64,000 nt of DNA. It comes from a virus. Under the pieces are notes generated by a model. The model was not told where the DNA came from and made no database searches. It worked only from the letters and a program-made list of their open reading frames with translations. The translations under genes and the position numbers were made by a program. Location: positions 1-64,000 of the IMG/VR virus record IMGVR_UViG_3300020411_000483; one strand, written 5' to 3'. Within the stretch, counting starts at the first letter, position 1, and every line of letters begins with the position of its first letter. Shown here one piece after another: positions 21,800 to 57,200 of this stretch.

Positions 21800-22016
21800 G
21801 ATCTTTAGCTAACGTTAGTAATAAGGATTTAATTTCACCCAATTCAGATTTTAACTCAGAAACATCATTTTGTAAAGTGTTAATCTTCTTTTCTTTAGCC
21901 TTCTCAGCATTTACTCCTGCCATATATTTTAAATATGCTGATTGATTTCCTAAATCAACCCCTCCAGAGTCGGTATCTTTAAACCATCCCTGTAGGTCTT
22001 TCACTGGCACTTTCAT
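21780..22016 (-). CDS. small coiled-coil hypothetical protein downstream of VrlC
   Basis: INTLQNDVSELKSELGEIKSLL heptads; start overlaps the VrlC stop. Confidence 0.8.
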   Translation of the reverse strand: MKVPVKDLQGWFKDTDSGGVDLGNQSAYLKYMAGVNAEKAKEKKINTLQNDVSELKSELGEIKSLLLTLAKDHDRPTS

Positions 22017-36215: not shown

Positions 36216-36223
36216 TATTTATG
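36216..36223 (-). promoter_or_regulatory. late promoter variant CATAAATA overlapping the gp7 stop
   Basis: Immediately upstream of the gp9-like gene. Confidence 0.5.
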
Positions 36224-39200
36224 GGATTATCTCAGGGTCAATTACTTCTTCACCATATTGACTTAAGTCTGGAGCAGTCCAATCATCAGGGACTGAAGTA
36301 TCAACCGATATACCAGGAGCAGAATATCCACTTCCTTGGTTAGAAATTACACACTCACCAACACCAACCAGTGCCTTAATCTGTGCGTCAAATCCAGAGA
36401 TGGAGTCAACCCTTACAGATGGTCTAGTTGTATATCCAGATCCAACAGAGGTAACTTGGACACTAGCGATAGACCCACTTGTAATCGTTGCAGATCCAAC
36501 TGCGTCCTTACCAAAGACTGATCCGAGATAGTCGAATGTGATTAGAGAGTTAGAAGATTCAATAACAGCAACTTCTCTGTCTGAAGTCTCACCTTGAATG
36601 TCAATAAAGTCACCTGGTTCAATTGGTGGGACAACTTCAGCAGCGTCAACGTCTGCCTCACTACCCACGTAAGAGAATGCAACGAATGTAGACCCAACAC
36701 GAGGTATTTCAGAGAAGATTATTCGAGAACCAACAAGCTCGAAACCTACGCCTGGTTCCTGAATAACACCATTGAGTGAAACGATGATATTATTTTCTGG
36801 ACGTATAACCGTAGACTGGACACCATCGGTAAGTGTTAGTGAGTAGAATACTCCATTACGCTTGAGGTTGAATGACTGTCTCAATGAGTCGAAGTCGAAT
36901 GAGATGTCATCTAACTGTCTCAACTTACCAACGTAGAATCCTGTGAATGCAGACCCTATCGTAGGTGCTTCAGTAAACTGAATTGTGTCTGAGAATGCTG
37001 TGTATGCGTTAGCTGCACCTGGAGGTTGTAGAATACCATTAACAAATATGAGCATATGTCCTTCAGAGTCAGGCAAGTATGCTGTACCATTATTCTGTGT
37101 AAGTTTGAATTGTGTTTGGACACCATCGAATCCCTTGAAGGATCTCTTAACACGTGCCTTAATATCTTGCTTACTCTTAACAACTGCCTTATATCCATTA
37201 AGTGACTTGATTGCGTCCTTAGTATCGAAGGTACCTACGATGTCACTCATGTAGATACGCTTGTTAACACCAACTGTCTCAATGTCTTGGACAAGAGCAC
37301 CAGCAGCACCTGCTGTTACAACAGAAGTTGTAATGGTTGCGTAACCAACTGGGAAGGATTCACCTTGACCGTAGTCACCAACGATATCACCGTTAGTTAG
37401 TGATCCCATTACAGGAGCGTAGTAGATGTAGTTATTGCTTAGGTCAACTGAAGTAATGATACCGTAATTTGCAGTATCTTGGACACCTGATACAACCTTA
37501 TAAAGTCTGTTACCAACAGTGAAGTTATTCAAGTTGGTTAGTATGCTAATACCAATTCTTGTGTATCCGTCTGATACAATTCTATTACCGATAGCAACAT
37601 CTAAACCACCAAACTTAGCAACCTCTAAGTATTGTCTTGAGCTTTCTGCGTAAACAACAGCAGTCTTCTCAAATGTTCCTAATAGAGATGCAGTATCAAC
37701 AACTAACTTACCACCAGTGTTTGTAAGGACAGCAGCTTCAGCAGTGATATTTGCGTTAACATCAGCAGTAGCACCCGAAGTATATCCTTGGAATCCTACA
37801 TTAGCATCAAATGTACCAATCTTATCGATGATATGCATTCTTGTCTCAATGTTACTAATCTGACAAGTAGTTGAGTTAGCAGCACCGACTATAGTGTCTA
37901 GGACTGCGAATGTACCAGCAGTAATCTTAACATCGACATACTTGAAGTTAGCATCTTCATGGAATCCATAAACAATACCTGTCTTAGTGTTATCACCTTG
38001 CTTTTGAATTGCCTCATTCATTGTGAATGGACCATCAGTGATAGTGCCATCAATTCTGAATCTGGAGTAGACTTGGACAATCTTACCTTCATTCCTTGTG
38101 ATTGATTCAACTTCAGCATATGCACCTGAAGTACCACCAAAGAAGTTGTCAGCATTATTAATTCCACCACCAAGAGGTATTGGAATATCTCTAGTGCCGT
38201 ATGTCTTAGCAGGAGTAACAATACCAGTTTGATTGGTAATATTTGTATAATGAGCGTTATTAACAAGTTGCTTCTTAACCATACCTAAGAGATATCTCAC
38301 AACTCTCATAATTGAGAGAGTGTTATAATCTTTTGCTAAAGTAGCAGAGGTGAATGCGTAGAAGGAAGCACCAGGAGAAGGAGAAGTTAGACTTTGAGAA
38401 AGTGCTCCATCAATCTGTGTTTCTAATGTCTCAAGAATGTAATTCTTAATGTTGAAATCGTTATCAGCATAGAATGTTGTGCCGTATGCAGAAACATATG
38501 GGTCAAGTGCAGACTTAGTTAGTTTTGCACCCCAAACATATACACCACTTACACCATCACCAGCGTAGTTAGTTGAACCACCAGCATTCTTAACGATAAC
38601 CTTGTTAGTTAAGGTTGTGAAACCGAAGGAGAATGTAATTTGAATATATGCTCTTATCCATCCACCACCAACAGGGACTGATCCATATGCGTTAGCAGTA
38701 ATACCTTGCTGAGGTGTGAATATGCTACCGAAGGATGCGTTACTTAAATCAAGGTCAAAGAATGCATTCTGCTCTGCTGATGTACCAGTATCCAATGTCA
38801 TTTGGAATCTAACCTTATCAAATTCTGCTTTCTTAATGAATGCAGAGAATGTGAATGTCTGAGCAGTAGTAATAGCACCTTCGTCAAACTTCTGACCTGT
38901 AGTATCCCACTTGATAGAAGTATCATCAAATGTATCGTAAGCAGTTAGACTATAATTTCTTGAAATTGTATGCTCACCAGTGCTACTATCAACTACAACC
39001 TTCTCAGCAAGTAATTGATCGTCTGGGTCAGCAGTTACATTACCGTCTATACTAGAACCGCTTGCAGTCCAGTTAGCAGTAAAGTCTTCAGGATTAGTAA
39101 AGAGGTTAATACCTGCAACTTGATCAGCAATACCTGTTGTTATAATTCTTGTAGAAGCAAGTGACTGGACGTTAGCAACAGTTGTGTAGTAATCGTAGGT

Positions 39201-42200
39201 AGGACCAACAACATTAACTACAGCAGTTGCACCGCTAGTGCCAGTTAAGTCATCTACAGATGCCCAATTTGTACCTGTAACATCACCAATAACCAACATC
39301 TGAGTCTCAGTGATATATTCCTTAACAGATGCATAACCACCACCAGATGAAGTTACAACTTCACCCTCAGAGAATTCTCCAATTACATTGGTAAGAGTGA
39401 TGTTTCTAGCATTACCAAACTTAGATGTATCAGTAATTGCTAAGTCATGAATTACATCATTAACTGTAGTCTCTAGGAATGTATTGATATCTGCTGACCA
39501 TGCACCAGAACCCCACTGACTGTTAACTAGATTTTCTAATTCTTGGTCGTAGTAATTCTTGTTATTAAGAATCATTCTACCAGCAGACCTACCAGCATCA
39601 TCTGAAGGAGATAGAGTATCAATTGCGATATCCATCAAGTTCTCAAATGCGTTAACTGCATCAATACAATCATCACTTAAGTATGCAGTATCACCCTTAC
39701 TATCGGTAATAGTTGCATCACGGTATGCAACTTCTGTAGTCCACATAGCAGCATACTGGTCACCAGTTAATCCAGTTATACCTTGGTTATAAAGGTTATT
39801 GATTATTGCTAGTTTACCAAGTTTCTTAACTTGCTGGAAGGCATACATGGTTGAGAGTAATTGATCCTCAACTTGTTTGATACCACCAGAAGTAGCAATA
39901 TAATTTTCAATTGCTCTAATAGTATTACTGTTACCACCAGTTTGTAGGTCACTGATGACACTATCAAGCAATAGTTTAATATCTTTCTTACATGTATCTC
40001 TACCAGTAGCACCACCTGGATACTGGAAGGATTGATAAAGGATGTTGTTTAGAGTATATGAGAATTCAGCATCTAGTAAACCAACTGCCTCTTCAGCAAT
40101 GTAATCCTTATTGAAGTGTAGAAGGTCACCTGCATCTCTATATCTGTCACCATTAGGAGCAAGAGTCTCATTTGCCAATAGGACTAAAGTATCAAGTGCA
40201 TCCTTAACGTTTGTGCAATCGCCAGGGGCAGTTACAGAGTTAGCAACAGCAGATACAAATGTATGAGCATAGTTACCACCTGTGACTATAGCATTAGCAG
40301 AAGCAGAAACAAATAGGTGTGCAGTTGTGTTAGTAGATGTACCAACGTTAACTGTGATTGTATTATCATCAACAGCAGTAATTGCTACAGCATCGTTGTA
40401 TGCAGGGTCATCTGCGGATGCTCCACCTTGTCCATTAGCACGAGGATATTGGTGATTAGATCCATGACTGTCCTGAGCACAAGTGAATGTTAATGATTGT
40501 TGTGCAATCTGAATTGCTGTGCCAACTGCTAAGTTATGAGCACCGATTGTTAATACCAATACACCTGTAGTAGGATCGTATGTTGCAGCAGTAGGAGTAA
40601 AGTATTTGGTAGGTGATGCACCAATGTTAACTGTAATAGTTGTTGCAGTAACTGCCTTAATTAAAATATTCTTGTTATACCAAGGGTCAGATGCTCTTGG
40701 ATAATCCTTAGCAGAACTGTTACCATCCATTGCACAAGTGAATTTCAATCCACCAGCAGCAATGTTAATCTTTCTACCAACTGTCAAACTGTGTGTTCCA
40801 ATGGTTAATACCATGTCACCAGTTACAGGATCGTATGTTGCAGCAGTAGGACTAAAGTTAGTAGCAGTATCTTGGGTAATACCCCAATCACCAATGATAA
40901 CAGAATCAGTATTAGCGTCAGTTAAATCACCTGTTACTGATTGCTTGGCATAGAATCCAAGTCTGTTATGAGCATATAGAGATTGAAGTAGTTGGAGTCT
41001 AACGTGTTGAATCTCATCGTTAGTTCCAAGGTAATTCTTAACTGCAATTAGAGTATTGAAGTTACCACCATCTTCGATGTCATTTGCAATAGCATCTAAG
41101 ATAATTCCTAAGTCAGTCTTACAACGTAGAGTACCAGCACCACTACCATCAGCATTTCTAGGCATTCCTAGAGTCAACTCAGGATAACGAGCAATCATAT
41201 CAGCAGCAGTCTTATCTACGATAGGACCACGATTGAGTCTGATTAGATTTGCAGCATCACGGAATCTGTCTCTAGTTGCTAGGTCAACTCTTTGTGTATA
41301 AGCAAGACCAGTAGCAACGTCATCGATGTTAAATGGTATTTCTAAGAATGCATCAGCAGTTGCACCAACATACTCATGTTGTGGAGTTAGTTTTGTAATA
41401 GTTGCTAGATGGTCTACAGCAACTGCCTGATTTGCTTCAATCAATGTATCAATAACAACTGATAATAGGTTATCAACAGTAGATTGTACGTCTGAGCAAT
41501 CACCGTTACTGTATCCAAGGACCTTAACGCAATCAGCGACTGCCTTAACCCACTTATGAGTATGCAACCATTTCTTAATAGCACCACCCTTAGCACTTAC
41601 AAATAAGTGTGAAGAGTTTGGAGTGTAAGAAACAGCGTTAGAAGCAGCAGTTACAAATGTATGAGCATAGTCACCACCTGCGTGGATTACTGCTCTCTTA
41701 ATTCCATTTGCAGTAGCAGAAACGAATGTATGTGCAGAAACGTTTGTGGAAGGTAGAGAATCTAATACTTGTACTTGGAATGTGTTTGTAGTAACTCCAG
41801 AAATAGTTAACCACTTACCAGATACAGGATCACTTGGTCTTGGATATGTGTGGTTAGTAGCATTACTATCCTTAGCACAACTGAAAGTTAAAGAGTTATC
41901 TGCAATCTTAATTCTTTCTCCATTAACGAAACCATGACCATTAACAGTCAATGTCAATAGACCTGTAGTTGGACTATAAGTTGCACCAGTTGCAGTATAG
42001 TTACTATTTGCACTTACAAATGTATGTGCAGTTGTGTTAGAAGAAGTTCCAACGTTTAGAGTAATTGTTGTTGCTGTTACAGCAGTAATTGTTACAGCAT
42101 CGTTGTATGCTGGATCGTCAGCAGATGCACCACCTTGACCGTTTGCACGAGGATAAGTGTGGTTGGATCCATGACTATCTTGAGCACATGTAAAGGTTAG

Positions 42201-45200
42201 AGAATTATTTGCAATTCTAACCTTATGATTTGTAGTGAGGTCATGCTCACCGATTGTTACTGTTAGAAGTCCAGTAGCAGGTACGAATGATGCAGCAGAT
42301 ACATCGTAACCGATAGCAGGAGACTTACCAACATTAACTGTAATTACACCTGACTGCTTTCTAATACCGTTTGTAGCAGCAGAGACGAATGAATGAGTTG
42401 TAGTATCAGATGATATACCAACATTAACTTGGAAAGTATCTGTAGCAACGTTAGAAATCTTTAACCACTTACCGTAATATGGGTCTGTCTTTCTAGGATA
42501 TGCATGGTCTGTCTGATTTCCATCAAGAGCACATCTCATTACTAGAGACCCTTCAACGATTTGAATGTAATCGTTATTGGAGTATCCATGAGAAGGAACT
42601 GTAATTACCATTACACCTGTAGAAGGTGTATAAGCAACGTTAGTAGCAGTAGTAGAAACATATCCTACTTCATCAACACGAATAGACTTGCTTTGACCAT
42701 ATGGGTCTGTAGCACGAGGATAAGTCTTATTAGAAGACCCTCCGTCCATTGTGCAGTTGAATGTTAATGAATCATTAGCAAGGACAATGTTAGATCCAAC
42801 CTGAATGCCATGCTGACCAATAGTCAGTGTCATGTCACCAGTTACAGCATTGTAAGTAGCAGCAGATGGAGTAAACTGTGCGTTTGTACCAGCAGCACCA
42901 ACATTAACTGTAATCTGACCATTCTGCCTCTTCATTCCGTTATTTAAAGCAGAAGCAAAGTTATGAGCAGTAGTATTAGTTGAAGTACCAACTTGAATAT
43001 CAAATTGAGTTGTAGTTACATTAGTAATCTTTAACCACTTACCGAATGTTGGGTCAGTAGTCCTTGGATATGCATGGTTAGTAGCATTACTGTCTTGTGC
43101 ACAAGTAAAGGTTACAGCACCAGCATCAAACTTAACTCTATCACCAGCAGAGAATCCATGAGCATCTAGGGTAATTGTCATTACACCTGTAGTTGGATTA
43201 TATGCTGCAAAACTTGGAGTATGACTTGTTGAACCAATAGCAGTTACAGCCTTCAACTTACCTGAAGTCCTAGTATCATGTCCAGGACGAGGATATGTCT
43301 TCTGAGACTGGTTATTGTCCATTGCACAAGTGAATGTCAATGAATTATCATCAATCTCAACGAAGTCATCTGTAGTAATATCATGTGTACCAATGGTTAA
43401 TACCATATCACCAGTTGCAGGATCATAAGTTGCAGCAGATGGAGTATATGGAATATAATCATCAGGTTGAGTTGACTTACCTACATTAACTGTAAATGTG
43501 TTGGTAGTTGCTTTAACAATTGGTAATACCTTATTGTAGAAAGGATCAGATGTCCTTGGATATGTGTGCTCTGAACCAAACTCATCTAAAGCACATTCAA
43601 ATGTAAGTGATTCTTTATCGATAGTGATAGAAGAACCTTCCTTATGGAATGCATTAGTCTTACCAGATACAAATGTATGAGCATGGTCTCCACCAGACAT
43701 TATGACTGCTCTGCTAACACATCCAGAAATTGCAGAAACGAATGTATGAGTTGAAGTATTAGAAGAAGCACTCACATTTACATTAAATGTATTTGTAGTT
43801 ACACCAGAAATCTTCAACCACTTACCAGAAGCAGGGTCTCTAGTTTGAATACCATTTGCACTAGCAGAAACAAATGTATGAGTTGAGGTATTAGAAGATG
43901 GAGTGATGTCTAATACTTGGACATCGAATGATGTAGATGCTACGTTAGAAACTTTTAACCACCTAGCACTTACAGGGTCAGAAGCACGAGGATAGGTTTT
44001 ATTAACTGTATTGCCATCCATTGCACATGTAAATGTCAATGAATCATTAGCAATCTTAATCTCATCACCATTTGCTAGGTTATGAGCAGCAGTTGTAGTA
44101 ATGCTTAAGATACCTGTTGTTGGGTTATAAGCAGTACCAGTTGTTGCTGTAAATTGAGCACCAGCAGCACGAGGATAGGTATGGTTTGTTGCGTTGCTAT
44201 CCTGAGCACAGGTAAAGGTTAATCCATTATCAGCAATCTTAACCCACTCACCATTCTGGAATCCATGACCATTAATGGTTAGTGTTAAAACACCTGTTGC
44301 AGGGGTGTAAGACGCTGTAGATGGTGTATATGTGTTATTTGCATTCTTGAATGTATGAGCATAAACTCCACCTGCCTTAACTGCACCAGCAGTAGCAGAT
44401 ACGAATGCGTGAGTTGTAGTATTAGAAGAAATACCAACGTTAACTGAGATAACACCAGTTTGCTTCTTAATTCCGTTAGAAGTTGCAGAAACGAATGTGT
44501 GAGCAGAAGTGTTAGTAGATGGTCCTGTGTTAACATCAAATGTGTTAGTTGTTACTCCAGTAACAGGCACCCATTGTGATGCAAGAGGATCAGTTACACG
44601 AGGATATGTGTGGTTAGTAGCATTACTATCCTTAGCACATGTAAATGTTAATGAATCTGCATCAAACTTAACCATATCTCTTGCTCTGAGCAATCCATTA
44701 GATGCCCAAGAGATGAAGGTATGTGCAGAAAGGTCTTGTGACTTATGAACGTCAACTGTAAATGAATTAGTATCAATCTTAGTAATTGGTAACCACTTAC
44801 CAGATACAGGATCAGATGAGCGAGGATATGTATGGAATGTAGCATCACTATCCTTAGCACAAGTCATAGTCAATGAATTGTCTACGATTTGTATTCTGTC
44901 ACCGTTAGAGAATCCATGACTTGATAAAGTAATGGTTAATATACCAGTAGCAGGAGCATAAGATGCAGCAGTTGGAGTATGTTGTGTAGCTCCAGTCAAT
45001 CCATGACTGTTGCTGGTAATTGTTAACTTACCAGTAGTAGGTGTATATGCAGCAGTAGATGCAGTTAGGTTTGTAGTACCAACTCCAGTAACCTCTATTG
45101 CAGTATCATATGCTCTATCTTTCTTCTGCTTAACTCCATTAGAAACAGCAGATACAAATGTATGAGCAGAAGTGTTAGTAGAAGGTGCAGAATCTAATAC

Positions 45201-48200
45201 CTGAATATCAAAGCCATTTGTAGATACGTTAGAAACTTGAATCCACTTATTAGCAATTGGGTCAGTTGACCTTGGATATGTGTGGTTAGTTTGGTTAGAG
45301 TCAGCAGCACAAGTGAATGTTAAGCAATTAGCATCTAACTTAACCCAATCACCATCCAACATGCCATGACCACCAACAGTAAGACTTAAAATACCTGTTG
45401 TAGGGTTATATGTAGCATTGGTTGGTGTATGATTTAAAATATCTGTTCTTGGATAGGTATGGTTTGTAGCATTACTATCCTGTGCACAAGTAAATGTTAG
45501 AGAGTTATCTGCAAACTTGATGCTATCACCAACTAATAGGTTATGAGATCCAATAGTGATGTCCAAAGCACCTGAAGCAGGTGTAAATGAAGCAGCAGAA
45601 ACGTCATGCTGAATTATTGGAGACTTACCAACATCTAATTGTATAGTATTATCTTTCTTAACTACGCTGTTATGATCCCATCTTAGATAAGTATGTGCAG
45701 AAATATCAGGAGACTTACCAACGTTAATTGTAAATGTATTAGTAGTTACAGCAGAAATTGTTATCCAACTATTAGCAACTGGGTCTGTTGCTCTAGGATA
45801 TGAATGATCAGACTGGTTATTATCCTTAGCACAACTGAAAGTTACAGCACCATCAGAAAGTTTAACTTGGTCATTAACTGCAAATCCATGTCCTATTAAG
45901 GTAACAATCATTTCACCTGTTGTAGGTGTATAAACTGCATTAGTAGGAGTATATGGAGTACCTTCATACTTGATAGGAATTGCTTCTTCATATACTGGGT
46001 CAGTTGACCTTGGATAAGACTTAATTGCATTATTGTCATCCATCGCACAAGTAAAGTTGAGCGAATTATTTGCCAACTTAATTGTTTGACCAGCAGCGAA
46101 GTTATGATCACCAATGGTTAATGACATCAAACCAGTTGCAGCATCGTAAGTAGAAGCAGTTGGTTTGTAAGCAACTAAAGGTTTCTTACCAACGAATATT
46201 TCAAAAGTATTTGTTGATACTACACCAACTTCAATCCATTTCTCTGATGCAGGATCCTCTGGTCTAGGATATGCGTGCTCGGACTTATTACCGTCCATAT
46301 CACAAGTCATTGTGACTGCACCATCTTCCATCTTGACCTTATCGCCAGGATTTAAACCATGACCGTTAGAAGTAACGACCATAATACCTGTGTTGGCATC
46401 ATAAGTTGCACCTGTTGCTGTGATAGCAGCACCAGCAGTCAAACCATGAGCTGCCTTGGTTAGAGTCAATTCTCCAGTTGAGGTATCATAAGATCCTGTG
46501 GTAGGAGTAATTGTTGATGGAGAAGCGTTAGTAGAATCAGTAATAGTTGTATCAGTGACCTGAGTTAATCCATGATCACCTAATATTTGAATATGTTGGT
46601 TAGTAATAATTTGCTGTGCTAACCTAGATAACTCTTCATGTACCCAGATTGTCTCTTCTACTTCAGTTTCAATGTGGTTAACAGTGATAGGAGATACATT
46701 TCTATTAACATAAAGTGCAGCAGCATCCCAAAGATAACTGTTACCACCGTTTCTTACATCTTTTATTAGAGCATCGATGATATCTTGTACGTCATCAGTG
46801 CAATTTACAGTGCCAGTAAGGACATTGAATGGTGAATAAGGTGACTGATGCTCCAATCTCCATACAACTTCCTTAGCAAGGAATTCCTTATTACTATTAA
46901 GTAAATCAGCAGCATTAAGATATCTGTGAGTATTCAGACTATGAGCAGATAGGTTACCACCTGTCTTTCTCTTAGTAGCAAGAATAGCATCATTATTAAA
47001 GTAATCTCCATCTACCCAAGTTCCAGTACCAGACCAATCATCAACATAAGTTGCTGCGTCAGGACCATCAAAGTGATATAGTAATTTTGTATTACTATCT
47101 CCTTGGAAAATACCAGTTGGAAGAGTATAAGCACCTGTATATCTTGCAGTTGTTGAAACTCTTACTTCATCAATATGACCATTAAATCCTGTAGCACCTG
47201 CATAGTCAGCACCGATATAAACTGGTTTAGAAGCACCGTAGTTGTTATTATCAGTATAGGTACTACCAACCTGTGCTCCATTTACAAATATCTTAGTTGA
47301 AGTGCCAGTCTTAGTAACAGCAACATGATACCATGTGTTTATTGCAAGAGTGCCACCATTAGCAGCAGCTGTATTTCCTACAGCAACTTTAAGTGCAGTG
47401 CCATCAGTATAAAGTCTAAGAGCAGTATCTGTAGCAGATGCACTTCTAGTATCAATAATTGTATGCTCTCCAGTTACATTAGCAGGACGAATCCATGCTT
47501 CAAGAGTAAGAGCACCAGTGCCGAATCCAAATTCTTGGTTTGCAGCAACAAGTAAGTAGTCACCAGTACCATCAAGTAATAGAGATGCAGTGCCCCACTT
47601 CTTCTGAGCAGTGTCTAATTGTGCTCCACCATTGAATGTAACAGTATGGAAGTCAGAACCAGAAGCAGTTGACCTACCCATCTTACCTAGGTAAACAGTG
47701 CTTCTTGCTTGGTTATAACCAATAACTTCTGCCTTAGAATTCCTAGACCTAATTACATTACCTTGGTTAAAGAATCCAGCACCTTGCTTATCAGTAAAGG
47801 TTAGTTTTCTTACAAAACCTTCTTCATTTTCTAGGAAAGTACCAGAGTTATTTCCATAATCAATTTTATAATTTCTAATAAACTCATTTTCTTGGAATGT
47901 TCCAGTAATATTTGTTGTCTTAATAACGTAGTTGTTAATCAACTCGTTAGCAGGGAATTTAGAATCAAATGCTGTTAGATTATCAGTAAAGTCAACAATA
48001 GAAATCTGAGACTGTGAAATATCATCCAATACAACGTTTGGATAAGTCTGAGATGCAATTCTGTTGAATAGTAGACCGAAGAATGAGGATCCTTCAGATA
48101 TATTGACCTGACTAATAAATTCGTTAGTTACAGGGTCTTGATAAGGACTTGTAGATGCAATTGTTGCAACAACACCAGACTTAGCAGCAATGATAACATC

Positions 48201-51200
48201 ATTTAACTGAATATCAAATAGACCTGGAGTAGACTGATAAGTACCAGTTGTCTTACTCAAGACCAAAGCATTGGTAATAGTAATGTCTGTGCCGTATAAT
48301 GGAGTATTCTCTAACTGTGCAGTAGCAGCAGTACCAAGTTGTGCTCTTGTTACTCCAAGAGTTGTAGACTCTGCACCATCAGTAATAGTATCAACTCTGA
48401 ATATTTCAGAACCAAACTGGTAATTCTTAGTAGCAACGAATGTGCCAGCAGGTAAAGCAGCAGCAGCACCAGTTACAGGTACTACTTCAAATGATGTTGT
48501 GGATTGACCGATTGTATAACGTAGTTTTGCAAGAGGAGTTTCTTGACCTTTTGCTAGGTTAATTTCTTCAATCTTAGCAGTATTACCCTCAAAGTTAGTA
48601 ATAGTCTCACCAAACATGAATAGACCATTATTAACAACGTCTGTTTGACTATTCAGTGTTGCTGAGAAACCAGTTGCACTAACGTTAACTAATTCACCAA
48701 TAGTGAATGTACCTTCAGTGATATAACCAAAGATATCGTTACCAACAACAGAAGTTACTCTAAACTTAGCAGCAGAAGAAGATCCAACTACATATTGACC
48801 TGCTATTGGGAAGATACCACTAATATTACTAAAGACGAATTTCTTAGTTGCAATCTGTGTAATAGTTACAGATGCATACTTAATACTTGCAGGTGGTTGA
48901 GGTGGCTCACTAAAGACGATGTTGTCACTCTGGACTTGGAAAGAAATACCAGGAGTCTGTGCAATACCGTTAAGAATAATCATCAACTGGTTTGCGTTTG
49001 CAACAACGTTGTCTCCAGAAACTGTTAGAGGGAATGCAATTCTTTCACCGTCAAATAGGTTAGAAATATCATCAATTCTCTGGACAACAGAAGTCAAGAT
49101 ATTCTCAGAAGATGTTAATCTCTTCTGTCTGAATAATACCTCAGTGTTATTAAATTCTTGATAGACTGGCTCAACTAGAGCAAAGTTTTGAATATTTGGA
49201 ACAATTGCTGATTGTGCCAATTCAACTGACTTAGTTAACTGGAATGCAGTTTCTTTGTTTGGAATTGACCCATATTCTTGTAGATTTAATTCTCCAAATA
49301 CCTTAAATGATGCAGGGTGGACATTTCTAAGTAGAATATCTTTCCACTCACTAATAGAAGTAGCAGAGTTAACTGCATAAGAGAAGTCCTGATAATAGTA
49401 GGAGTCTTGAATCTTCTGAATGATTTCTGAAGGTTTACCTACGTCATCGATAAATTGACCTGTAGTTTGAGTGATAGACCCGATTTCTAGGACACCCTTA
49501 GCAATATTGAGGTCAGAGATAACACCAGAAGACTTAGAGATAACACCAGTTATCTTTTGTCCTTCAATGAAATCACCAGTGTAGTCAACAATCTTAAGGA
49601 TTCTAGGTCCAATCTGCCAACCATTGTTTTCAGAAACATATCCAGTAGCAGTTGCAGTAGCAAATGTATCACCTTGATATACTAATTCACCTTCGTCAAA
49701 GACTGAAGTTGCAACGTTAGCAGTAGCAGCACCACCGAAGGATTCGGTCAATACTTGCTGTCTTCCAGTACCTGCGTTAACGAAGCTAATAGCATCTCCT
49801 AAAGCTGCGTTACTAGCAGTAATTGCCAGTTTCAACTGGTCAGTTTCTAATGAGTTTGCTGCTCCAGCAATAGCATAGTAAGTAGTAGAAGAGTTTAATC
49901 TACCAATAGCACCAGCAGCAAGAGGATACTCAGCACCATCACCAGTATCAACTACATTAAGTGTTACAGCAGATCCATTCGCAATACCATGTGGGAAAGC
50001 AAACTGTAGTAATCCCAAGTCAAGGTTTACAACATAGTTAAATGCAGACCTTAAAGCAATTGTAGGTGTAGATGAATATCCAGCACCTGGATCCTTAACG
50101 ATTATATTATCTAATCTACCATTCTTAATAGATGCTTCAGCAACAGCACCAGATCCACCACCACCTGTAATTACAACAGCAGGTGCTTGTGAATACCCAG
50201 AACCTGGGTCAGTAACTGTAATACTAGCAAGTATAGATGTGCTAGTTAATTGACAGTTTAGAGGGAAAGTAATCTCAGGACGTAAAGTATAGTCATGAGG
50301 ATAATCATAACCAAAGTTATTATTCTTAAGTTTCTTAATTTTACCAACTTTATCTCCTTTAGTGAAAATAGATGCACCACTACCAGAGGAAGGAATGACA
50401 ACAGTCAATTCTGCTCCAGAACCAGTTAGTCCACTACCAAGTATGCCAGGAATTGAGTCAATGTCAATAGATGCAGTAGTATAATTCTTACCTGGAGAAG
50501 TAACAGCAACACTGTTAATCTGACCTGGAATTGTTACACCTTCAGCATCAGTGCCATCTGCAACTGTAATTGATACTAAACCACCTTCACCATCACCAGC
50601 AATAGGTACTCCAGTGTATTCTCCTACAGCATATTCAGTACCTGGAGTCTTAATATCAACTCTCTCAATCTTTCTTGTTGATTCAATATTAGAAATAATA
50701 GGTAATTTAGTATAGAAACCACCTGAGTTAACAATACGAATAGAAGCAATTGAACCAACTGCCTTAACAGAACTGGTAGAGTAACTAGAAGGAGATACTT
50801 CAGCAGCACCTTCTGGCTCATTTGCCAATATGAATCGCATAGCATCATCACCTCTAGTAATTGTCGCACCAGAAGTAGATGAAATTTCAAATGTACCCTT
50901 ATAAGGAGAATCTACAACATCAAGATAACTTCCTGGAATTACAGGAGATGTATCAGATGTAGTCCTAGATGGGTCGAAATAGTAAGAAATATTAGTAACA
51001 ACATCACCATCAACTTTAAACTTAACAGATGGAGTAGGTACACCTTGACCAGTTACTCCAGGTGTTCCAATTCTTTCAATGCTGTTAAAGGAATATTCGA
51101 GTTTATAGAGACTATCTTTAGCAAAGGATAGGTTACCACCAACCAAAGATGAATGGCTGAGGTCAAAGATATATTGGTGTCCATAGAACATCTTCAGAGT

Positions 51201-54200
51201 TGGGGACTTCACAAAGATGCTAACATTACCAGGAGTTGTAGCAGGATCAGTTACTGCTGCCTGTGGCAGTTTGTAAGTGAATTCCTTAACACTAATAACA
51301 TCTTTTACAAAGAATGCACCATCATATTCATCATAAACTACAGAGTTATATGTCTGTGATGGGTTACCATCAACATAAACCATTTCACCAGGTGTGAGAT
51401 AATGACTTGTAGATGTAATTACATAAACTTGGTCACTATTAGCAACTGAAGAAACTTGAAGAATCTTAGTTAAATTTGCAACAAGAGTAATCTTAGTAAC
51501 AGCAGTCAATCCAGTGATTTGAAGAGTGCTGTATGCAGCATTAAATGAAGTCTGGTTAGCAGGGACATCTACAACAGATCCAACAATATATGCTGACCCT
51601 CCTGCAACTTCATCGATTCTTACAGTATAGTCACTACCAGACCATGCTTTAAACTTAGCAAAACTATCAAGGTTTTGACTACCACCAGCATTATAAGTGC
51701 CGTCTAAATTATAATCGTCTAGGTCAATATCAAATGTACCAGGAGTTGTGTTATTAACTTCTGCAAATGTATATGCAGCAATTTCATTGGTATCATTTGG
51801 TATAGGACCACGAATACCATAAGTGGATTGCTCATCAAATCTTTCTGTAGAAAGTTGACCTGTATTGGTATCGTTAGTCCAAACATTATTATTAACAGCA
51901 ACGTAAACCTTATTATTATCCTTATCAACACTGGTAATATAACCACTATTAATAAAGGTGTTGCCATTCTTGAGCATCAACTTAGCACCAACAGTAAAGT
52001 TGAATGCTTGGTTGATAGTTAATTCTTGTATATTATCAATCTTAGAAGTATCTGTTACCTTAAAGAAGTAACGGTCTTTAACCTTAGCAGTTGCATTAAC
52101 CTTAGTAGAACCAGGAGAAGGAACTGTACCTGTCCTAGATGACCAAATATCTTGGACATAAGTCATTGATTCAGTTGCTTCAGTATATGCTACGTTAGCA
52201 TCGTCAAAGTCTAGTGACTGGAATCCAGCATCACCTAATGATAGACCAACATTACCGATAGTCAAAGTTGACCCTGTAACAGGAGTAATAGCAGTCCTTG
52301 TTAGAGAAAGTTGTGTATTTGTAAATGCAGTTTTAACACCTAATCTTGCAGCATCAGCATTCTTATCAACTTTCAGTCCAACAGCATTAAAGTCAATGTA
52401 ATCATACTTATTAAGATGATTAGTAAACCATGCATCATCTACCCAGTCAAATGTTAAACCATAACTTGCTACTGGAGGTAGAGTTGTAATATCAGAAGGA
52501 ACTGTAGGAACAAGTGCCCTATTTCTCAATCTAATGTTATCAATATAGAATTGTCCTTGCTTACCAGCAGAGAAATCTGTTGCACCACTACCGAAACCAA
52601 TCTGGTTACCAAAGTAGAGTGTCTTATTACCGAGTGAAGTATTTGATTGTGTGCCACTTAATACTTCAATACCATTAACATATGCTTTAAATGTATCACC
52701 ATTCTTACTTACTCCAATTGTCTGCCAACTGTTATTAGCATACATTGTTGTCTGAGTAGACTCAATAGCACTACCAGCAGCAATTGTAGTAGAATTATTA
52801 GTTACAACGAAAGTTAACTTACCGTTAGAAGTATTATATCCTAACCATAGTCCACCAGTTGCATCTTGAGCACCACCAATACCTACAAGAGTTTGGAAAC
52901 CTTGAGATAAAGTCTGTGATTCACTAGCATTCTTATAGATGAAGAATTCAAGAGTCCAGTTATCACCTAGTTTTGTACCTAATTGAGTATTAGTTACAGA
53001 AAGATATGAATTGACCCATGTAGAGTTAGATCCAGCAGGGTTATATCCATATATCTTCGCCATATTATCGGCGACTGTAACTGAGTTAGTAGTTTGTCCA
53101 ATTCCAAGTGTATAATGACCTGTTATATCAGTTGTTTGGTTACTTGCAAAGTCGTATATAAATTCGTTTCTATTATGAGATGCCTGACCAAATACATGAA
53201 GGTCACCTGAATTATCAATATCAAGTGAATGTGCAGTCCATCCCTCAGTAGTATTTGCGGTAGCAGTATCAACACGGAATTCATTACTTGTATGATTTAA
53301 CATCGTGCCATCATACTTAATCTTAGCAGTGTTAACTATCTTCTTACCATCTACCTGAGAGGCAGAATGAGTATAAGCAACGTTAACATCACCAAAGATA
53401 TCAACTCTAGTCTTACCAACTACTTCAATATCTCTTGCTTCTGCAACATATCTCTTATTCCAAAGTACTGCACCAGCAGCATCAAACTTACAAATCCAGA
53501 AACTATCCTTAGTTACATCATCAGACTTAAGTCTACAAGTAGCAGTAACATAGAATTCGTTAAATTCATCAAAACATACACTAGCATTCTGGAAGGAATA
53601 TAGAGTATTGCTTATTTCTTTAATCCATTCAATCGTAATTACATTAATACCTACAGTTGCTTTACCAAAGGATACGTTAATATCATTTGAAGCAGCAGAT
53701 GTAGATGTCTCCATAGTAAAGTAAACTGAACCATCACTAGCAACTGTAATGTCAGTAATCTTCTCATTTCCAGCAGCAGTTGCTAATTTTCTCTTAACAA
53801 CGAAAGAACCAGCAGTATCAGTAACTGCTAAGAATGCATCATAAGGATTAGCAGAGTTAGTATTAGTATAACCACCCATTATGAAACGAGTAGGATTGCT
53901 AGACAACTTAGTCAGAGCAGTTACATAATCTTCTCTAGTAGAACCTGAAATACCAGCATATGCCTTCTGAATTGCTAATCCAGCACTCAAACCATTTGAT
54001 GCTTCAAGATACTTACATAGGATTACATCAGGGTTATATGCATCCAATACAGTAATATTTGGTCTATTAGTACCAGCAACCCAAATATCATTACCATCAA
54101 CGTAAATCTTATTAAATTCTAGGTAAGTTGTGCCTGTGTTAGGAGCAGTAGATTCTAATGTCTTCTCCCATTCCTTAACACCAGTAGCAGACAGTTTTGC

Positions 54201-57200
54201 AACTATACCTACAGTATTACCAGAAGTATCCTTTGTCTTACCACAAACATATACTTCTTTAGTAGTATTGACGAAAATATCGTTAATCTTAACGAAATCG
54301 TTATTACTAATCAATGAAGCATAATAATCACACTTCTTGAATACCTGTGGGTGAGATAGAATAACACGAGGGTTACTTGTATATCCAGACCCTGAATTTA
54401 GAATCTTGAATGATTCAATAGATCCAACAGAAGAAACAACTGCTTCTATAGATCCACCAGTACCGCTATCACTATCAATAGTAACAGTAGGAGGAATGTC
54501 TGTGTTATATCCACTTCCGATTGTATTAACAATAACTTCTTCTATACCTTTGTATTGACGGACTACAAATGTCTTATTTGTATTGTCCATTGTAGGAGCA
54601 TAGTCTACAAAGACTGTATCTCCAGCAACTAGGTTATGAGGATTAACTGAGGTTAAAATACCATAGTTAACTCCATCAAGGGTTTCATAAGTATATGACT
54701 CAACTGCTTCACCTTTAATTCTTGCAACACGAGCAGAAACACCACTACCATCAGTATCAGTGTTATCAAATATTAGACGGTCATTAACCTGATAAGATAT
54801 ACCTGGGTTTTCAACAGTAAATCCAGTTACAGATGCATCTTCAAACTTGGTAATAGTATCAACTTCAATATCAACCTTAGAATCAAATCTTACTTTAGGG
54901 AAGTAATCAAACAGTTGTAGAGGTGCTTCCTCAAACATCTGTTCTGGATCTGCGGTCTCATCAGCAGTAATAACACCATCTCTATTTTCGTCTTCTGGGT
55001 CAAATAGGAGTATATCACCTGCTTCAGTAGTTAAAGCGTTTGTAGAGGCATTTGGAGTCCTCTCAACGTCAATATCTACATTCTCGTATGGGTCTCTATA
55101 ACGGACAACACCAGTAGGAATATTCTGTTGGACAGCATCATCTACTAGGTTCCATGTATCAACTACAGAGTTATAACTTGGTCCTAAAATATAAGGGAAT
55201 TTTGGATTACCTGCTTCAGCAGCATCAATAGTAACGAAATAGCAGTATCTACCAGCAGAGAATTCAGGAGTCTTACAGAAACGTCCATTATACTGGTCTA
55301 AGTCACCACTACCAAATACATATTCGTAGTCTTCAACAAACTTACCAGCAGCTTCGTCTGTTAGTAAAGGACCATCAGTTCTTACAGGATATGGGTTTGA
55401 AACAGCATCATAGACTAGATTTGTCTTAAGACTATAAGATGTGTTTAATCTTTGTACCTGTGAAGTCTGATTAGTTGGGTCAGAGTAACCATAAGGTCCA
55501 TAAATTGGGTTACCATCAAATGCCCACCCAATAATAGGTGAGTGTGTTAACTGGACATCCTGCTCAAGGATTGTACCAGATTCTGATTCATATAGATTAT
55601 CACCTAAAATATATCTTAATTTCTGTGGGTTAGAGAGGTGAGCATATTCTCCACCATATTGTACGTTAAATCCTTCAAATACAGATCCTTTCGCAGTATC
55701 GAAGGTAGAAGTCTCTTGTAAATTATAAGTCCACTCAAATACGTTTGCTGTAAAGGTAGCATTAATACCAATAGAAGTGAGGTTAATTAATGTTGTACCT
55801 TGAATATATCCAATACCTTTGTTGGTAATAGTGATACCAGTAACTTTACCAGCATTCTCACCGTCAACATCGATAGTTGCTTTTGCTACAGCACCAAATC
55901 CTTGACCCTGTATGCTAACTTCAGGAGCAGTAGTGTATCCGCTACCAGCAGAAATAATAGCAATCGATATAATTCTACCATTGTTAACAATTGCCTGAGC
56001 AACAGCACCACTACCAGATGATAGTTTTACATTTGGTTTTGAAGTATAAGATGCACCACCATTGGTGATATTAACAGTCTTAATTGGACCTCTGACAGAT
56101 GCAGTAGCAGTTGCCCCAGATCCACCTCCACCGACTATAGTTATCTCAGGTTGAGAAGTATATCCACTTCCTCCAGCATTTATTAGTACTCTTGAAACGA
56201 CTCCTTTCGTTATAATCGCAGTTGCAGCAGCACCTGAGCCACCTCCACCAACGATAGAAACAAGAGGTGAAGAAGTGTAACCACTACCACCTGCTGTTAC
56301 ATCAATAGAAGAAATTGCACCGTCAACTGTAACAGTTGCAGTTGCTCCAGATCCACCACCCCCAGTAAGGGTCATTGCAGGAGGAGAAGCAGCATCGTAA
56401 CCTTCACCAGCAGCAGAAATGCTAATAGAGGTTACAGCACCAAAGGTTTTAGTTTGTTTAGACTTATAAGACCAAATTGATACACCATTAACCCATGTTC
56501 CAATTGGACCAGGGACAATAGCAGTCTTAGTTGAAATAGTAGTAGGAAGTAAGGCAAACCTGTTTAATTTACGTTGGTTGCCTGGTAATAAAGCAGATCC
56601 AGGGAATGGACCAATTTCATAGTTTGGAATACCAGTAGATGCAACATAAACGTAACTGGTATTGAAAAATGTATTCTGAACGTTAGTAGTGTAAGGTCCA
56701 ATAGCATTACTAATTGCAGTATTAACTGACTTACCTTTGTTAAGGTCAACTGAAATTAGAATATTACCCTGTGGCACAACTTGTGCTGGTTGAGGTAATT
56801 GATATTGGAATACAGTCGTGGAATCCCTTGATGTTACTAGGAAACTTCCGTTATAAAGAATTGGGTTTGCACCATAAATTGTAACTTGGTCTCCAACCAA
56901 TAAACCATGAGGGTTAGCACAAGTAACTGTAGCAGACTGATTATTAACACCACCATAAGCAATGCTAGTTACATTAATGAGTTTCTTAACGTTATACAAC
57001 CAAGTTGTTAGTTGAGGTTGTGTAGATGTGCCTCCCAACTTAGAAACAGTTAATTTATCTCCTGGTAGGTAGTAAGAACCTGTATCAGTTAATGTAGTTT
57101 GGTTAGCATCAACGATACCAACCACATTCATCACAACTTCTTGTAATGTGCCTTTATTGAGGTAAACTACGAAATTAGACTTAACTACTGTAGCAGAGTC

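What the first reader, a model, noticed from the sequence alone, without database searches (positions are those of the whole stretch)
41520..46514. Recursively nested (Russian-doll) module array encoding a branched protein tree
Seen in sequence: the ~104-aa module has ordered parts A (Y.P.TG..LT...HG), B (K.ADNSLTFTCA.D...H.YPR), C (DP...W..I), D (T.F.VNVG.S) and E (AHTFVSA..NG). The 16 copies are not tandem. Modules open, are interrupted by complete modules, then resume where they stopped, like balanced brackets: D1[D2[D3[D4][D5[D6][D7[D8]]][D9[D10]]]][D11[D12][D13[D14][D15[D16]]]]. Depth reaches 6, five different loops act as insertion sites, and some modules host 2-3 children. The end shows stacked closing strands (..AHTFVSATANG / DYAHTFVTAA / SSHLFVSAK / HTHKWVKAV). 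Inference: the folded product is a dendritic scaffold projecting from the baseplate, built by repeated self-insertion of one module.
Basis: seen in the sequence. Interest (0 to 1): 0.9.

Follow-up and report, generated by a model that had tools for sequence, protein, structure and literature searches.

The report
Self-nested beta-barrel tree in cyanophage gp7
A 7,858-residue baseplate protein (gp7) of a marine T4-like cyanophage carries 18 copies of one ~100-residue beta-barrel inserted into each other's loops up to six deep, a branched "Russian-doll" build described so far only for cyanobacterial RNA polymerase.

Summary
Window 41526-46514 (minus strand, aa 4428-6090 of one 7,858-aa ORF) is tiled, with linkers of 4 residues or fewer, by 16 copies of a ~103-aa His/Cys-bearing module. 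Nine of the 16 are split into 2-3 pieces by complete copies. A last-in-first-out parse closes every module with no order violation and reaches depth 6. Only 2 of 100,000 shuffles of fragment order parse as well. A second two-module nest lies at 40230-40862.

Rejoined modules measure 100-108 aa and match the module HMM full length. Three orthologs carry module M9 uninterrupted. AlphaFold2 folds native nested stretches confidently (209 aa: pLDDT 92.7, pTM 0.77; 626 aa: pLDDT 83.6).

The barrel is closest to E1-FCCH and phage endosialidase barrels (Z 7.6-8.3) and meets no Pfam family threshold. The protein is the gp7 ortholog. Each tree hangs from one loop of a helical, weakly phycocyanin-like host unit.

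The recursive architecture has a published precedent (RpoC2 Si3: 8 domains, 6 levels). I found no paper describing it in a virion. This scan has already noted the same build in at least 17 other cyanophage genomes.

The tree topology is supported. The 3-D "dendritic" shape, the function and a His/Cys metal site remain inference.

The parts
36219..59795 (-). Giant ORF, 7,858 aa; gp7 (baseplate wedge) ortholog of T4-like cyanomyoviruses
   Evidence: Synteny gp25-gp6-giant-gp8. Aa 600-1000 are 78-80% identical to Syn9 virion structural protein and P-SSM4 gp7.
41526..46514 (-). Array 1: 16 modules (M1-M16) in one nested tree, aa 4428-6090, depth 6
46425..46514 (-). M1 piece 1 (region A)
   Evidence: hmm 3-33
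43464..43640 (-). M1 piece 2 (regions B-D), resumes after the M2 subtree
   Evidence: hmm 29-86
41526..41576 (-). M1 piece 3 (closing E strand, motif HTHKWVKA)
   Evidence: E-block score 11.4 against null maximum 3.4
46182..46424 (-). M2 piece 1 (A-D)
   Evidence: hmm 4-83
43641..43700 (-). M2 piece 2 (E)
   Evidence: E-block score 18.6
45963..46172 (-). M3 piece 1 (A-C)
   Evidence: hmm 3-69
45615..45659 (-). M3 piece 2 (D)
   Evidence: D block
44328..44375 (-). M3 piece 3 (E)
   Evidence: E-block score 15.4
45660..45962 (-). M4, intact module (child of M3, C|D loop)
   Evidence: hmm 2-102, 151.9 bits
45441..45611 (-). M5 piece 1 (A-B)
   Evidence: hmm 3-58
45078..45125 (-). M5 piece 2 (C)
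   Evidence: C-block score 9.3
44376..44465 (-). M5 piece 3 (D-E)
   Evidence: hmm 75-101
45126..45434 (-). M6, intact (child of M5, B|C loop)
   Evidence: 158.9 bits
44991..45074 (-). M7 piece 1 (A)
   Evidence: hmm 2-29
44466..44684 (-). M7 piece 2 (B-E)
   Evidence: hmm 29-103, 104.2 bits
44685..44987 (-). M8, intact (child of M7, A|B loop); the deepest level (6)
   Evidence: 160.4 bits
44163..44327 (-). M9 piece 1 (A-B)
   Evidence: hmm 2-59. AF2 pLDDT 91-97.
43710..43844 (-). M9 piece 2 (C-E)
   Evidence: hmm 58-102. AF2. M9 is uninterrupted in orthologs P0006, P0010 and P0012.
43845..44156 (-). M10, intact (child of M9, B|C loop); absent from the 39-49% orthologs
43233..43451 (-). M11 piece 1 (A-C)
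   Evidence: hmm 3-72. AF2.
42885..42923 (-). M11 piece 2 (D)
   Evidence: Rejoined alignment. AF2 strand 174-184.
41577..41627 (-). M11 piece 3 (E, motif SHLFVSA)
   Evidence: E-block score 12.1. AF2 strand 616-621.
42924..43229 (-). M12, intact (child of M11, C|D loop)
   Evidence: 156.8 bits
42663..42881 (-). M13 piece 1 (A-C)
   Evidence: hmm 2-72
42312..42359 (-). M13 piece 2 (D)
   Evidence: D block. AF2 strand 364-374.
41628..41684 (-). M13 piece 3 (E, motif YAHTFVTA)
   Evidence: E-block score 19.6. AF2 strand 597-603.
42360..42659 (-). M14, intact (child of M13, C|D loop)
   Evidence: 154.9 bits
42000..42311 (-). M15, intact (child of M13, D|E loop), with an extra loop of about 8 aa
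   Evidence: 104.1 bits
41685..41999 (-). M16, intact (second child in the same D|E loop of M13)
   Evidence: 158.8 bits
40611..40862 (-).
   Evidence: hmm 2-85, 86.4 bits
40284..40607 (-). Array 2, M18, intact (child of M17, D|E loop)
   Evidence: 132.3 bits
40230..40283 (-). Array 2, M17 piece 2 (E)
   Evidence: E-block score 28.0
46536..46943 (-). Helical host unit H1, N-part (aa 4285-4420), immediately before array 1
   Evidence: 27-30% identical to H2 and H3, E 1e-11 to 1e-17. Alignment A6.
41424..41522 (-). H1 closing helix (aa 6092-6124), immediately after array 1
   Evidence: blastp to the closing helices of H2 and H3, E 0.003-0.03
40863..41288 (-). Helical host unit H2, N-part (aa 6170-6311), before array 2
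40161..40223 (-). H2 closing helix (aa 6525-6545)
39594..40172 (-). Helical host unit H3 (aa 6542-6734), carrying no beta-array

Best explanation
What it is. The region encodes a covalent tree of small beta-barrel domains made by recursive domain insertion. One ~103-aa, eight-stranded barrel serves both as host and as guest. Its conserved residues are Y11, G16, H25, C44, Y55-P56-R57, D60 and H90. Complete copies sit in four surface loops of other copies (after regions A, B, C and D). Nine of the 16 barrels in array 1, plus M17 in array 2, are therefore assembled from 2-3 chain segments up to about 1,600 residues apart.

How it is attached. The first and last strands of each guest run on directly from the host's flanking strands, so each guest sits on a two-stranded beta stalk. 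The 16-barrel tree, and the separate 2-barrel nest, each leave and re-enter the chain at one point: a loop of a helical host unit in the distal half of gp7, the baseplate wedge protein.

Inferred consequences (not shown).
- Because the tree is a side branch and not an in-line spacer, barrels can be added or lost without changing the register of the rest of gp7. This makes it an evolvable surface display on the baseplate periphery.
- The most likely role is multivalent binding to the host surface, perhaps to glycans, or structural decoration of the baseplate. I put this at roughly 35-40%.
- The invariant His/Cys/His trio probably forms a metal site that clasps regions A, B and E of each barrel. 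I put this at about 50%.
For: Shown:
- Fragments carry complementary HMM coordinates.
- The LIFO parse has no violations, no unclosed modules and depth 6. Only 2 of 100,000 fragment-order shuffles do as well.
- The pieces tile aa 4428-6090 with gaps of 4 aa or fewer. Rejoined modules are 100-108 aa and score 91-148 bits full-length, against 117-170 bits for intact modules.
- The tree is identical in orthologs at 98, 88 and 79% identity. In orthologs at 39-49% it differs by indels close to one or two module lengths.
- P0006, P0010 and P0012 carry an uninterrupted M9 (hmm 2-102, 111-117 bits). In P0006 it is 68% identical to the window's M9 A-B half.
- AF2 on native M9[M10], with a 31-row same-topology MSA: pLDDT 92.7, pTM 0.77. 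M9 has 5+3 strands in the same order as the 8 strands of M10.
- AF2 on the native 626-aa M11 subtree (6 modules, 12 rows): pLDDT 83.6, pTM 0.53, 542 of 626 residues at 70 or above. Continuous strands cross the junctions (67-78, 174-184, 257-268, 364-374), and the closing E strands are formed.
- Split-module complementation with ESMFold2, no alignments: verdict 'weak support'. Score 0.35 against a best control of 0.01. That mark was reached by 51 of 78 solved complexes and 2 of 108 mismatched pairs. At 0.60 or under, however, it was reached by only 5 of those 78 solved complexes and by all 4 mismatches that passed. The runs agree in at least 96% of contacts and the partner's pLDDT is at least 62.
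- gp7 identity and baseplate gene context.
- Family-wide conservation over 521 modules: C44 99.6%, H90 99.4%, H25 96%, YPR 99-100%, D60 99.4%.
- All 121 giant homologs nest to depth 4 or more, and break-points cluster at discrete loop positions.
Against: - No coordinates were available. I could not superpose rejoined barrels on intact ones, measure the overall shape (extended tree or compact cluster), or check that H25, C44 and H90 are close in space.
- The AF2 MSAs are shallow (12-31 rows), and pTM for the six-module piece is only 0.53.
- The LIFO assignment of consecutive closing E strands (M3 against M2; M13, M11, M1) is assumed, not proven. Local strand exchange between neighbouring barrels, as reported for Si3, is not excluded.
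- Three blocks (C of M11 and M13, D of M11) fall below the PSSM threshold and are placed by HMM alignment and AF2 only.
- Function and any oligomeric state are untested.
- H53 is Lys in 32% of modules, so a four-ligand site is not universal.
Confidence: 0.85

Rival explanations
1. Linear, strand-swapped chain. The fragments do not rejoin their distant complements. Each pairs with whatever lies next to it in sequence, giving a bead-like or domain-swapped rod and not a tree.
For: - Si3, the closest precedent, shows some exchange of secondary-structure elements between recursively inserted domains (PMC11515920).
- The AF2 model has long strands that run across parent/child junctions.
- No coordinates were inspected.
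Against: - Fragment HMM coordinates are exactly complementary and always close in LIFO order.
- Rejoined lengths are 100-108 aa.
- Orthologs carry M9 uninterrupted.
- Isolated 13-17-aa pieces (single C, D or E strands) have no complete partner among their sequence neighbours, which are intact barrels.
- AF2 is confident on both halves of M9, with the same strand order as M10.
Confidence: 0.05
2. Out-and-back trimeric fibre. As in the T4 gp37 needle, three chains run out to a tip and return, so outgoing and returning halves of each repeat look nested in sequence and His residues bind metal along the axis.
For: - The Syn9 ortholog is annotated 'putative fiber'.
- His-rich repeats and stacked closing strands at the end of the array resemble a returning chain.
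- The oligomeric state was not tested.
Against: - A hairpin fibre gives a purely linear nest. Here six hosts carry 2-3 children in different loops, and nine modules are uninterrupted.
- The monomer folds into discrete barrels at pLDDT 84-93.
- There are no periodic HxH motifs. The conserved His residues are single, one each in regions A and E, and often one in B.
- The barrel matches monomeric FCCH and endosialidase barrels.
Confidence: 0.05
3. Artefact. A mis-assembled repeat region or a decaying tandem array whose pieces only look ordered.
For: - The record is a metagenomic virus contig, linear and about 42% complete.
- Repeats are prone to mis-assembly.
Against: - One uninterrupted 23.6-kb reading frame.
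- Module copies are only 31-69% identical, too diverged to collapse in assembly.
- The identical tree appears in independent assemblies at 98, 88 and 79% identity, and related trees in more than 100 others.
- The fragment-order shuffle gives 2 of 100,000.
Confidence: 0.01

Closest known systems
Si3 insertion of cyanobacterial/plastid RNA polymerase beta' (RpoC2): recursively inserted SBHM/HABAS domains (PMC10895346, PMC11515920, PMC13114784)
   Same: - One small beta domain family is inserted into copies of itself.
- Continuous and discontinuous copies are mixed (SBHM-1, 6, 7 and 8 are continuous; 2-5 are built from distant segments).
- There are six nesting levels and bifurcating hosts.
- The whole array is a side branch from one loop of a host element (the trigger loop there, a helical unit here).
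- Both occur in the cyanobacterial world.
   Different: - Different barrel. No RNAP/SBHM chain is among the top 50 structural matches, which is inconclusive for remote homology.
- 16 domains in one tree, plus 2 in a second, against 8-10.
- Extracellular virion baseplate protein, not a cytoplasmic enzyme.
- The topology is rapidly remodelled between close relatives, whereas Si3 is described as ancient and retained.
- An invariant Cys/His set is present here.
FCCH beta-barrel of ubiquitin-activating enzyme E1 (Pfam PF16190; PDB 9mc4, 4p22, 2v31)
   Same: - Best structural match to the intact module: 9mc4_A Z 8.3, rmsd 2.8 A, 80 residues aligned; 4p22_B Z 7.8, rmsd 2.8 A, 77 aligned.
- It is also the best, though non-significant, Foldseek match.
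- FCCH is itself an inserted domain (my own knowledge).
   Different: - 6% sequence identity.
- Pfam hit only at E 0.11, in 1 of 9 modules.
- Z of 7-8 is in the range the tool calls common for unrelated models.
- No functional link.
Beta-barrel domain of phage endosialidases (Pfam PF12195; phi92 endosialidase 4hiz) and similar barrels in phage tail and neck proteins (FCWL1 9jlf_E, N4 9lc0_I, lambda gpJ 8iyk_J)
   Same: - 4hiz_A: Z 7.6, rmsd 2.4 A, 79 aligned, 19% identity. 9jlf_E: Z 7.3, rmsd 2.8 A, 82 aligned, 20% identity.
- Sub-threshold Pfam End_beta_barrel hits in 2 of 9 modules, best E 0.028.
- These are also phage tail accessory barrels. In endosialidase the barrel is an inserted, sugar-binding domain (my own knowledge).
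   Different: - Below every family threshold.
- Those barrels occur singly and are not self-nested.
- They lack the H25/C44/YPR/H90 signature.
T4 gp7 baseplate wedge protein
   Same: - Gene order gp25-gp6-[this]-gp8.
- 78.6% identity over 401 aa to P-SSM4 'gp7: baseplate wedge initiator'.
- Weak Pfam Baseplate_wedge hit at aa 676-726.
   Different: - About 7.6 times longer than T4 gp7 (1,032 aa, my own knowledge).
- The nested arrays, LamG, YHYH and helical units are cyanophage-specific additions.

Membership tests
Recursive self-nested domain-insertion architecture (Si3 type) | Domains of one family are inserted into loops of other copies of the same family | tested here: met
   HMM and PSSM parse; rejoined modules 91-148 bits
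Recursive self-nested domain-insertion architecture (Si3 type) | Discontinuous domains fold from distant chain segments | tested here: met
   AF2 of native nested stretches; uninterrupted ortholog of M9. Prediction and comparative evidence only, no experimental structure.
Recursive self-nested domain-insertion architecture (Si3 type) | Several nesting levels, with hosts that carry more than one guest | tested here: met
   Depth 6 (7 with the helical host). M1, M2, M3, M5 and M11 have 2 children each and M13 has 3.
SBHM / HABAS domain family (CATH 2.40.50.100) | Structural or sequence similarity of the module to SBHM/HABAS domains | tested here: inconclusive
   No RNAP or SBHM chain among the 50 best of 48,161 chains, nor in Foldseek. 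No profile comparison with HABAS was possible.
E1_FCCH (PF16190) | Pfam gathering-threshold match | tested here: not met
   1 of 9 modules, E 0.11; no hit at default thresholds
E1_FCCH (PF16190) | Same fold | tested here: inconclusive
   Z 8.3, rmsd 2.8 A, 80 aligned; Foldseek E 0.02-0.07
End_beta_barrel (PF12195) | Pfam gathering-threshold match | tested here: not met
   2 of 9 modules, best E 0.028. Structural match to 4hiz_A: Z 7.6, rmsd 2.4 A, 79 aligned.
T4-like gp7 baseplate wedge protein | Position between gp6 and gp8 in the baseplate gene block | tested here: met
   PHROG hits of the neighbours; same order in Syn9
T4-like gp7 baseplate wedge protein | Sequence similarity to annotated cyanophage gp7 | tested here: met
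   78-80% identity over 401 aa to Syn9, P-SSM4 and others
T4-like gp7 baseplate wedge protein | Pfam Baseplate_wedge (PF23786) above its cut-off | tested here: inconclusive
   25.5 bits against a cut-off of 27
T4-like gp7 baseplate wedge protein | Present in the virion | not tested
   Only the annotation 'virion structural protein' on relatives
Phycobiliprotein fold (PF00502), for the helical host units | Sequence or profile similarity to phycobiliproteins | tested here: inconclusive
   Profile of the 3 units: 28 of 32 PDB hits are phycocyanin alpha, best E 0.0078, and the Cys aligns with Cys84. Single units give no Pfam hit at E<=10.
Phycobiliprotein fold (PF00502), for the helical host units | Covalent bilin on the conserved Cys | not testable with these tools
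   -
gp37-type out-and-back metal-binding fibre | Purely linear nesting and periodic HxH motifs | tested here: not met
   Branched tree; single conserved His per region

The most novel reading that the evidence does not exclude
The barrel tree is a metal-clasped, multivalent receptor-binding 'dendrimer' displayed from a phycobiliprotein-like domain of gp7, which may itself bind a bilin. Whole-barrel gain, loss and circular permutation at loop positions would then be the way marine cyanomyoviruses retune host adsorption without touching baseplate assembly. This would be a mode of host-range evolution distinct from tail-fibre tip swapping.
Probability: 0.2. Interest if true: 0.85.

Novelty: new variant of a known kind. 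Interest (0 to 1): 0.7.

Why it matters
- Recursive self-insertion of a domain is documented in depth for essentially one system, RpoC2 Si3. A 2026 survey of 2.7 million domains cites its six levels as the most complex case.
- This protein reaches the same depth with twice as many domains in a single tree.
- It uses a different barrel and sits in an extracellular virion machine.
- Related phages still change the tree by whole-barrel gain and loss. That gives a living series for studying how nested architectures arise, fold (co-translationally the parent cannot close until all its descendants are made) and resist force.
- gp7 giants are among the largest proteins of abundant ocean viruses and are largely unannotated. 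A domain map is the first step toward understanding what the cyanomyovirus baseplate does at the cell surface.

Tried and rejected
- Megablast of the region against 50,697 phage records found no match.
- Pfam at default thresholds finds nothing over the arrays.
- A profile of the module against PDB sequences gave only a spurious iota-carbonic-anhydrase hit, E 6e-4, with no stretch passing on its own.
- A mixed-topology MSA for the M5 subtree (A3) was discarded. MAFFT paired region A of one module with B-E of another.
- The M5 subtree was not folded because only 7 same-topology relatives exist.
- Foldseek of the two-module model against PDB found nothing at E<=0.001.
- Foldseek of the six-module model against PDB gave only generic multi-beta-domain proteins, with TM<=0.11 and rmsd>=26 A.
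- ESM Atlas returned no usable hit for helical unit H3.
- Pfam at E<=10 gave nothing on the single helical units.
- No other ORF in the window, and no other place in the 74-kb record, carries the module.
- I looked for SBHM/RNAP among the structural matches and it is not listed.
- Six literature searches plus three paper look-ups found no description of nested barrels in a phage particle.

Full report
**What is there.** The finding lies inside a single 23.6-kb reading frame on the minus strand (36219-59795; 7,858 aa). It corresponds to residues 4428-6092. It also showed a second small cluster near aa 6310-6520.

An HMM built from eight uninterrupted copies (103 match states) finds 9 complete hits and 13 fragments with i-E below 1e-4. 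It also finds two short closing E strands at marginal scores. The fragments' HMM coordinates complement each other: 3-33 with 29-86, 2-29 with 29-103, 2-59 with 58-102, and 4-83 followed much later by an E strand. The genome search reproduced the same fragment map independently. It also showed that all 22 matches in the 74-kb virus record lie in this one ORF.

**Formal test of the bracket claim.** I built block PSSMs (A, B1, B2, C, D, E) from 521 complete modules collected from 121 giant homologs. I then ran a last-in-first-out stack parse.

The window protein gives these results:
- 18 modules and 85 exact block transitions;
- 3 blocks below threshold;
- no order violation inside the arrays and no unclosed module;
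- depth 6 (M1>M2>M3>M5>M7>M8).

The trees are [[[[][[][[]]]][[]]][[][[][][]]]] starting at aa 4433 and [[]] starting at aa 6318.

Two shuffle controls were run. Shuffling block order never came close (0 of 100,000; best shuffle 61 errors against 3). Keeping the 28 fragments intact and shuffling only their order matched the real parse in 2 of 100,000 trials.

The pieces tile aa 4428-6090 without overlap, leaving only linkers of 1-4 residues. Every rejoined module totals 100-108 aa, the same as the intact ones. Rejoined in silico, the nine split modules align full-length to the HMM at 91-148 bits, against 117-170 bits for intact modules.

- M9[M10] is a sibling of M3 in the D|E loop of M2, not a child of M3.
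- M15 and M16 are siblings, not nested.
- Four loops, not five, are used in this window.
- There is a second nest (M17[M18], window 40230-40862).

**Do the split modules fold?** Chimeric, rejoined sequences cannot be submitted to the structure tools, so I folded native nested stretches with MSAs restricted to rows of the same topology. A mixed MSA was rejected after I saw that MAFFT mis-paired fragments.

M9[M10] (209 aa, 31 rows) gave mean pLDDT 92.7 and pTM 0.77. The two halves of M9 scored 91-97 and 89-97. M9 has five strands before the insert and three after, in the same order as the eight strands of M10.

The M11 subtree (626 aa, 12 rows) holds six modules. It covers the C|D and D|E insertion sites, two siblings in one loop, and two stacked closing strands. 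It gave mean pLDDT 83.6 and pTM 0.53, with 542 of 626 residues at 70 or above. The isolated D and E pieces form strands. Strands of 11-12 residues run straight across the parent/child junctions. This suggests that each guest sits on a two-stranded stalk continuous with the host's flanking strands.

A split-module complementation test used the M9 A-B half and the M9 C-E half as two chains, folded by ESMFold2 without alignments. The verdict was 'weak support':
- Score 0.35 against a best control of 0.01.
- That mark was reached by 51 of 78 solved complexes and 2 of 108 mismatches.
- At 0.60 or under it was reached by only 5 of those 78 solved complexes and by all 4 mismatches that passed.
- The runs agree in at least 96% of contacts, and the partner's pLDDT is at least 62.

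The tools return no coordinates. I therefore could not superpose barrels or measure the overall shape.

**Nature's own controls.** The tree is identical in orthologs 98, 88 and 79% identical over this region. Orthologs listed at 39-49% identity share the right-hand subtree and the M5 subtree. Pairwise alignment shows indels of about 41-204 aa, most close to one or two module lengths.

In P0006, P0010 and P0012 the M9 position holds one uninterrupted full module (hmm 2-102, 111-117 bits). In P0006 its first 60 residues are 68% identical to the window's M9 A-B half. M10 is therefore a lineage-specific insertion right after 'YPR'. Conversely, M4 is a leaf here but a host in those orthologs.

Family-wide results:
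- All 121 giants nest to depth 4 or more, and fragment break-points cluster at discrete HMM positions.
- Insertions follow block D 695 times, A 336, B2 302 and C 266. The B2 count includes some C|D insertions whose C block fell below threshold.
- Insertions between B1 and B2 occur 15 times.
- In P0004 the second array is a host split at hmm 49|51. It carries a circularly permuted guest, E strand first.

Within the window, module pairs are 31-69% identical. Host-type modules (often lacking W66) resemble one another more than they resemble their own children. The tree is therefore old and remodelled, not a recent self-copy.

**What the barrel is.** Pfam has no family for it. At E<=10 there are only sub-threshold echoes: End_beta_barrel at E 0.028 and E1_FCCH at E 0.11. 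Foldseek against PDB finds nothing at E<=0.001; the best hits are E1 FCCH at E 0.02-0.07.

VIA-align against 48,161 chains aligns the intact module (model residues 58-168) as follows:
- UBA1 FCCH: Z 8.3, rmsd 2.8 A, 80 aligned.
- phi92 endosialidase barrel: Z 7.6, rmsd 2.4 A, 79 aligned, 19% identity.
- A phage FCWL1 neck protein: Z 7.3, rmsd 2.8 A, 82 aligned.
- FNR-type FAD barrels: Z 6-7.
- Barrels in N4 and lambda tail proteins: Z 5.3-6.1.

These Z values are in the range the tool warns can reflect a common arrangement. No RNA-polymerase SBHM appears in the list.

BFVD shows the same barrel in other cyanophage proteins. These include 'baseplate wedge initiator' of S-SSM7, a long tail fiber and an endosialidase.

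An exhaustive profile search of 1.84 billion representatives finds only 737 proteins at E<=0.001 (535 at 1e-10). All of the 150 listed carry two or more matched stretches. This is a small family that rarely, if ever, occurs singly.

Conservation is extreme at C44 (99.6%), H90 (99.4%), H25 (96%), Y55-P56-R57 (99-100%) and D60 (99.4%). H53 is His in 63% and Lys in 32% of modules. One Cys and two invariant His residues lie in regions A, B and E of an extracellular domain. This suggests a metal site that clasps the split barrel, but that is inference.

**Context.** The neighbouring genes are gp25, gp6, gp8-like and further wedge proteins. Residues 600-1000 are 78-80% identical to the Syn9 'virion structural protein' and to P-SSM4 'gp7: baseplate wedge initiator'. 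Syn9 has the same gene order and a 6,076-aa ortholog annotated 'putative fiber'. The giant also carries a YHYH domain and a LamG-type lectin domain.

Each array is flanked by a helical unit, about 130 aa before it and a closing helix after it. Three tandem copies exist, 27-30% identical (E 1e-11 to 1e-17), and the third carries no array. The trees are therefore insertions into a helical host, seven levels in all.

A profile of the three units hits almost only C-phycocyanin alpha subunits in the PDB (28 of 32 hits; best E 0.0078). The units' invariant Cys aligns with bilin-attachment Cys84. This is marginal, and single units do not hit PF00502.

**Comparison with what is known.** I read the papers that earlier scan notes pointed to.
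- Cyanobacterial RpoC2 Si3 has eight SBHM domains. Four are continuous and four are built from distant segments. They form a 150-A 'swordfish' (PMC10895346).
- A 2026 survey of 2.7 million domains names this six-level, eight-domain case, with bifurcating nodes, as its example of maximal complexity (PMC13114784).

The phage tree works the same way architecturally. It differs in barrel family, in having twice as many domains, in its location in a virion, and in ongoing remodelling between relatives.

Six searches and three paper look-ups found no description of it in a phage. The scan itself has noted the same build in at least 17 other cyanophage genomes. I checked the claims that I reuse.

**Verdict.** Nested-insertion architecture: confidence 0.85. 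Function (surface display or adhesion; metal clasp): inference at 35-50%. Novelty: a new variant of a known kind.

Noticed in passing
window 39594-40172, 40863-41288, 46536-46943 (minus strand; aa 6542-6734, 6170-6311, 4285-4420): There are three tandem helical units, 27-30% identical, two of which host the beta-trees in one loop. Their joint profile hits almost only C-phycocyanin alpha subunits in the PDB (28 of 32 hits; best E 0.0078). The units' invariant Cys aligns with bilin-attachment Cys84 (motif CK.D against KCARD), and FPY aligns with KFPYT. Single units do not reach Pfam PF00502.
   Followed up: partly
homolog P0004 aa 6309-6516 (79% ortholog; equivalent of window 40230-40862): In this close ortholog the second array has a different build. 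The host module is split inside region B (hmm 49|51) and carries a circularly permuted guest, with the E strand first and then A-D. A regex for this pattern occurs about 35 times in the 121 homologs.
   Followed up: partly
window 55221-55805 and 47142-47573 (minus strand; aa 1331-1525 and 4075-4218): The giant also carries a YHYH domain (PF14240, E 8e-31) and a Laminin_G_3/ConA-like lectin domain (PF13385, E 8e-24). The lectin domain lies just upstream of helical unit H1.
   Followed up: no
window ~55926-56528 and ~57900-58800 (minus strand; aa ~1090-1290 and ~330-620): There are runs of Gly-rich repeats of about 45 aa with the motif GGSGYTS.P.V.I.GGGGSGA. This is a different, apparently tandem repeat family in the N-terminal third. 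It was seen by eye in the translation.
   Followed up: no
window ~56700-56900, ~54500-54650, ~50750-50950 (minus strand; aa ~965-1030, ~1715-1760, ~2950-3010): Single copies of an 'HGL..GD.V.I' motif resemble the A/B region of the module but lack the Cys/YPR/His signature. They may be related stand-alone barrels. One homolog (P0013) carries a precomputed E1_FCCH Pfam hit.
   Followed up: no
window 15051-21509, 22016-29242, 30818-34966 (minus strand): Three further very large structural genes (2,152, 2,408 and 1,382 aa) have PHROG structural, tail-fibre or wedge matches. None carries the nested module.
   Followed up: partly
whole record (G000, 74,020 bases): The window comes from a linear IMG/VR virus contig that CheckV estimates to be about 42% complete. 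The absence of the module elsewhere in the phage genome therefore cannot be concluded.
   Followed up: yes
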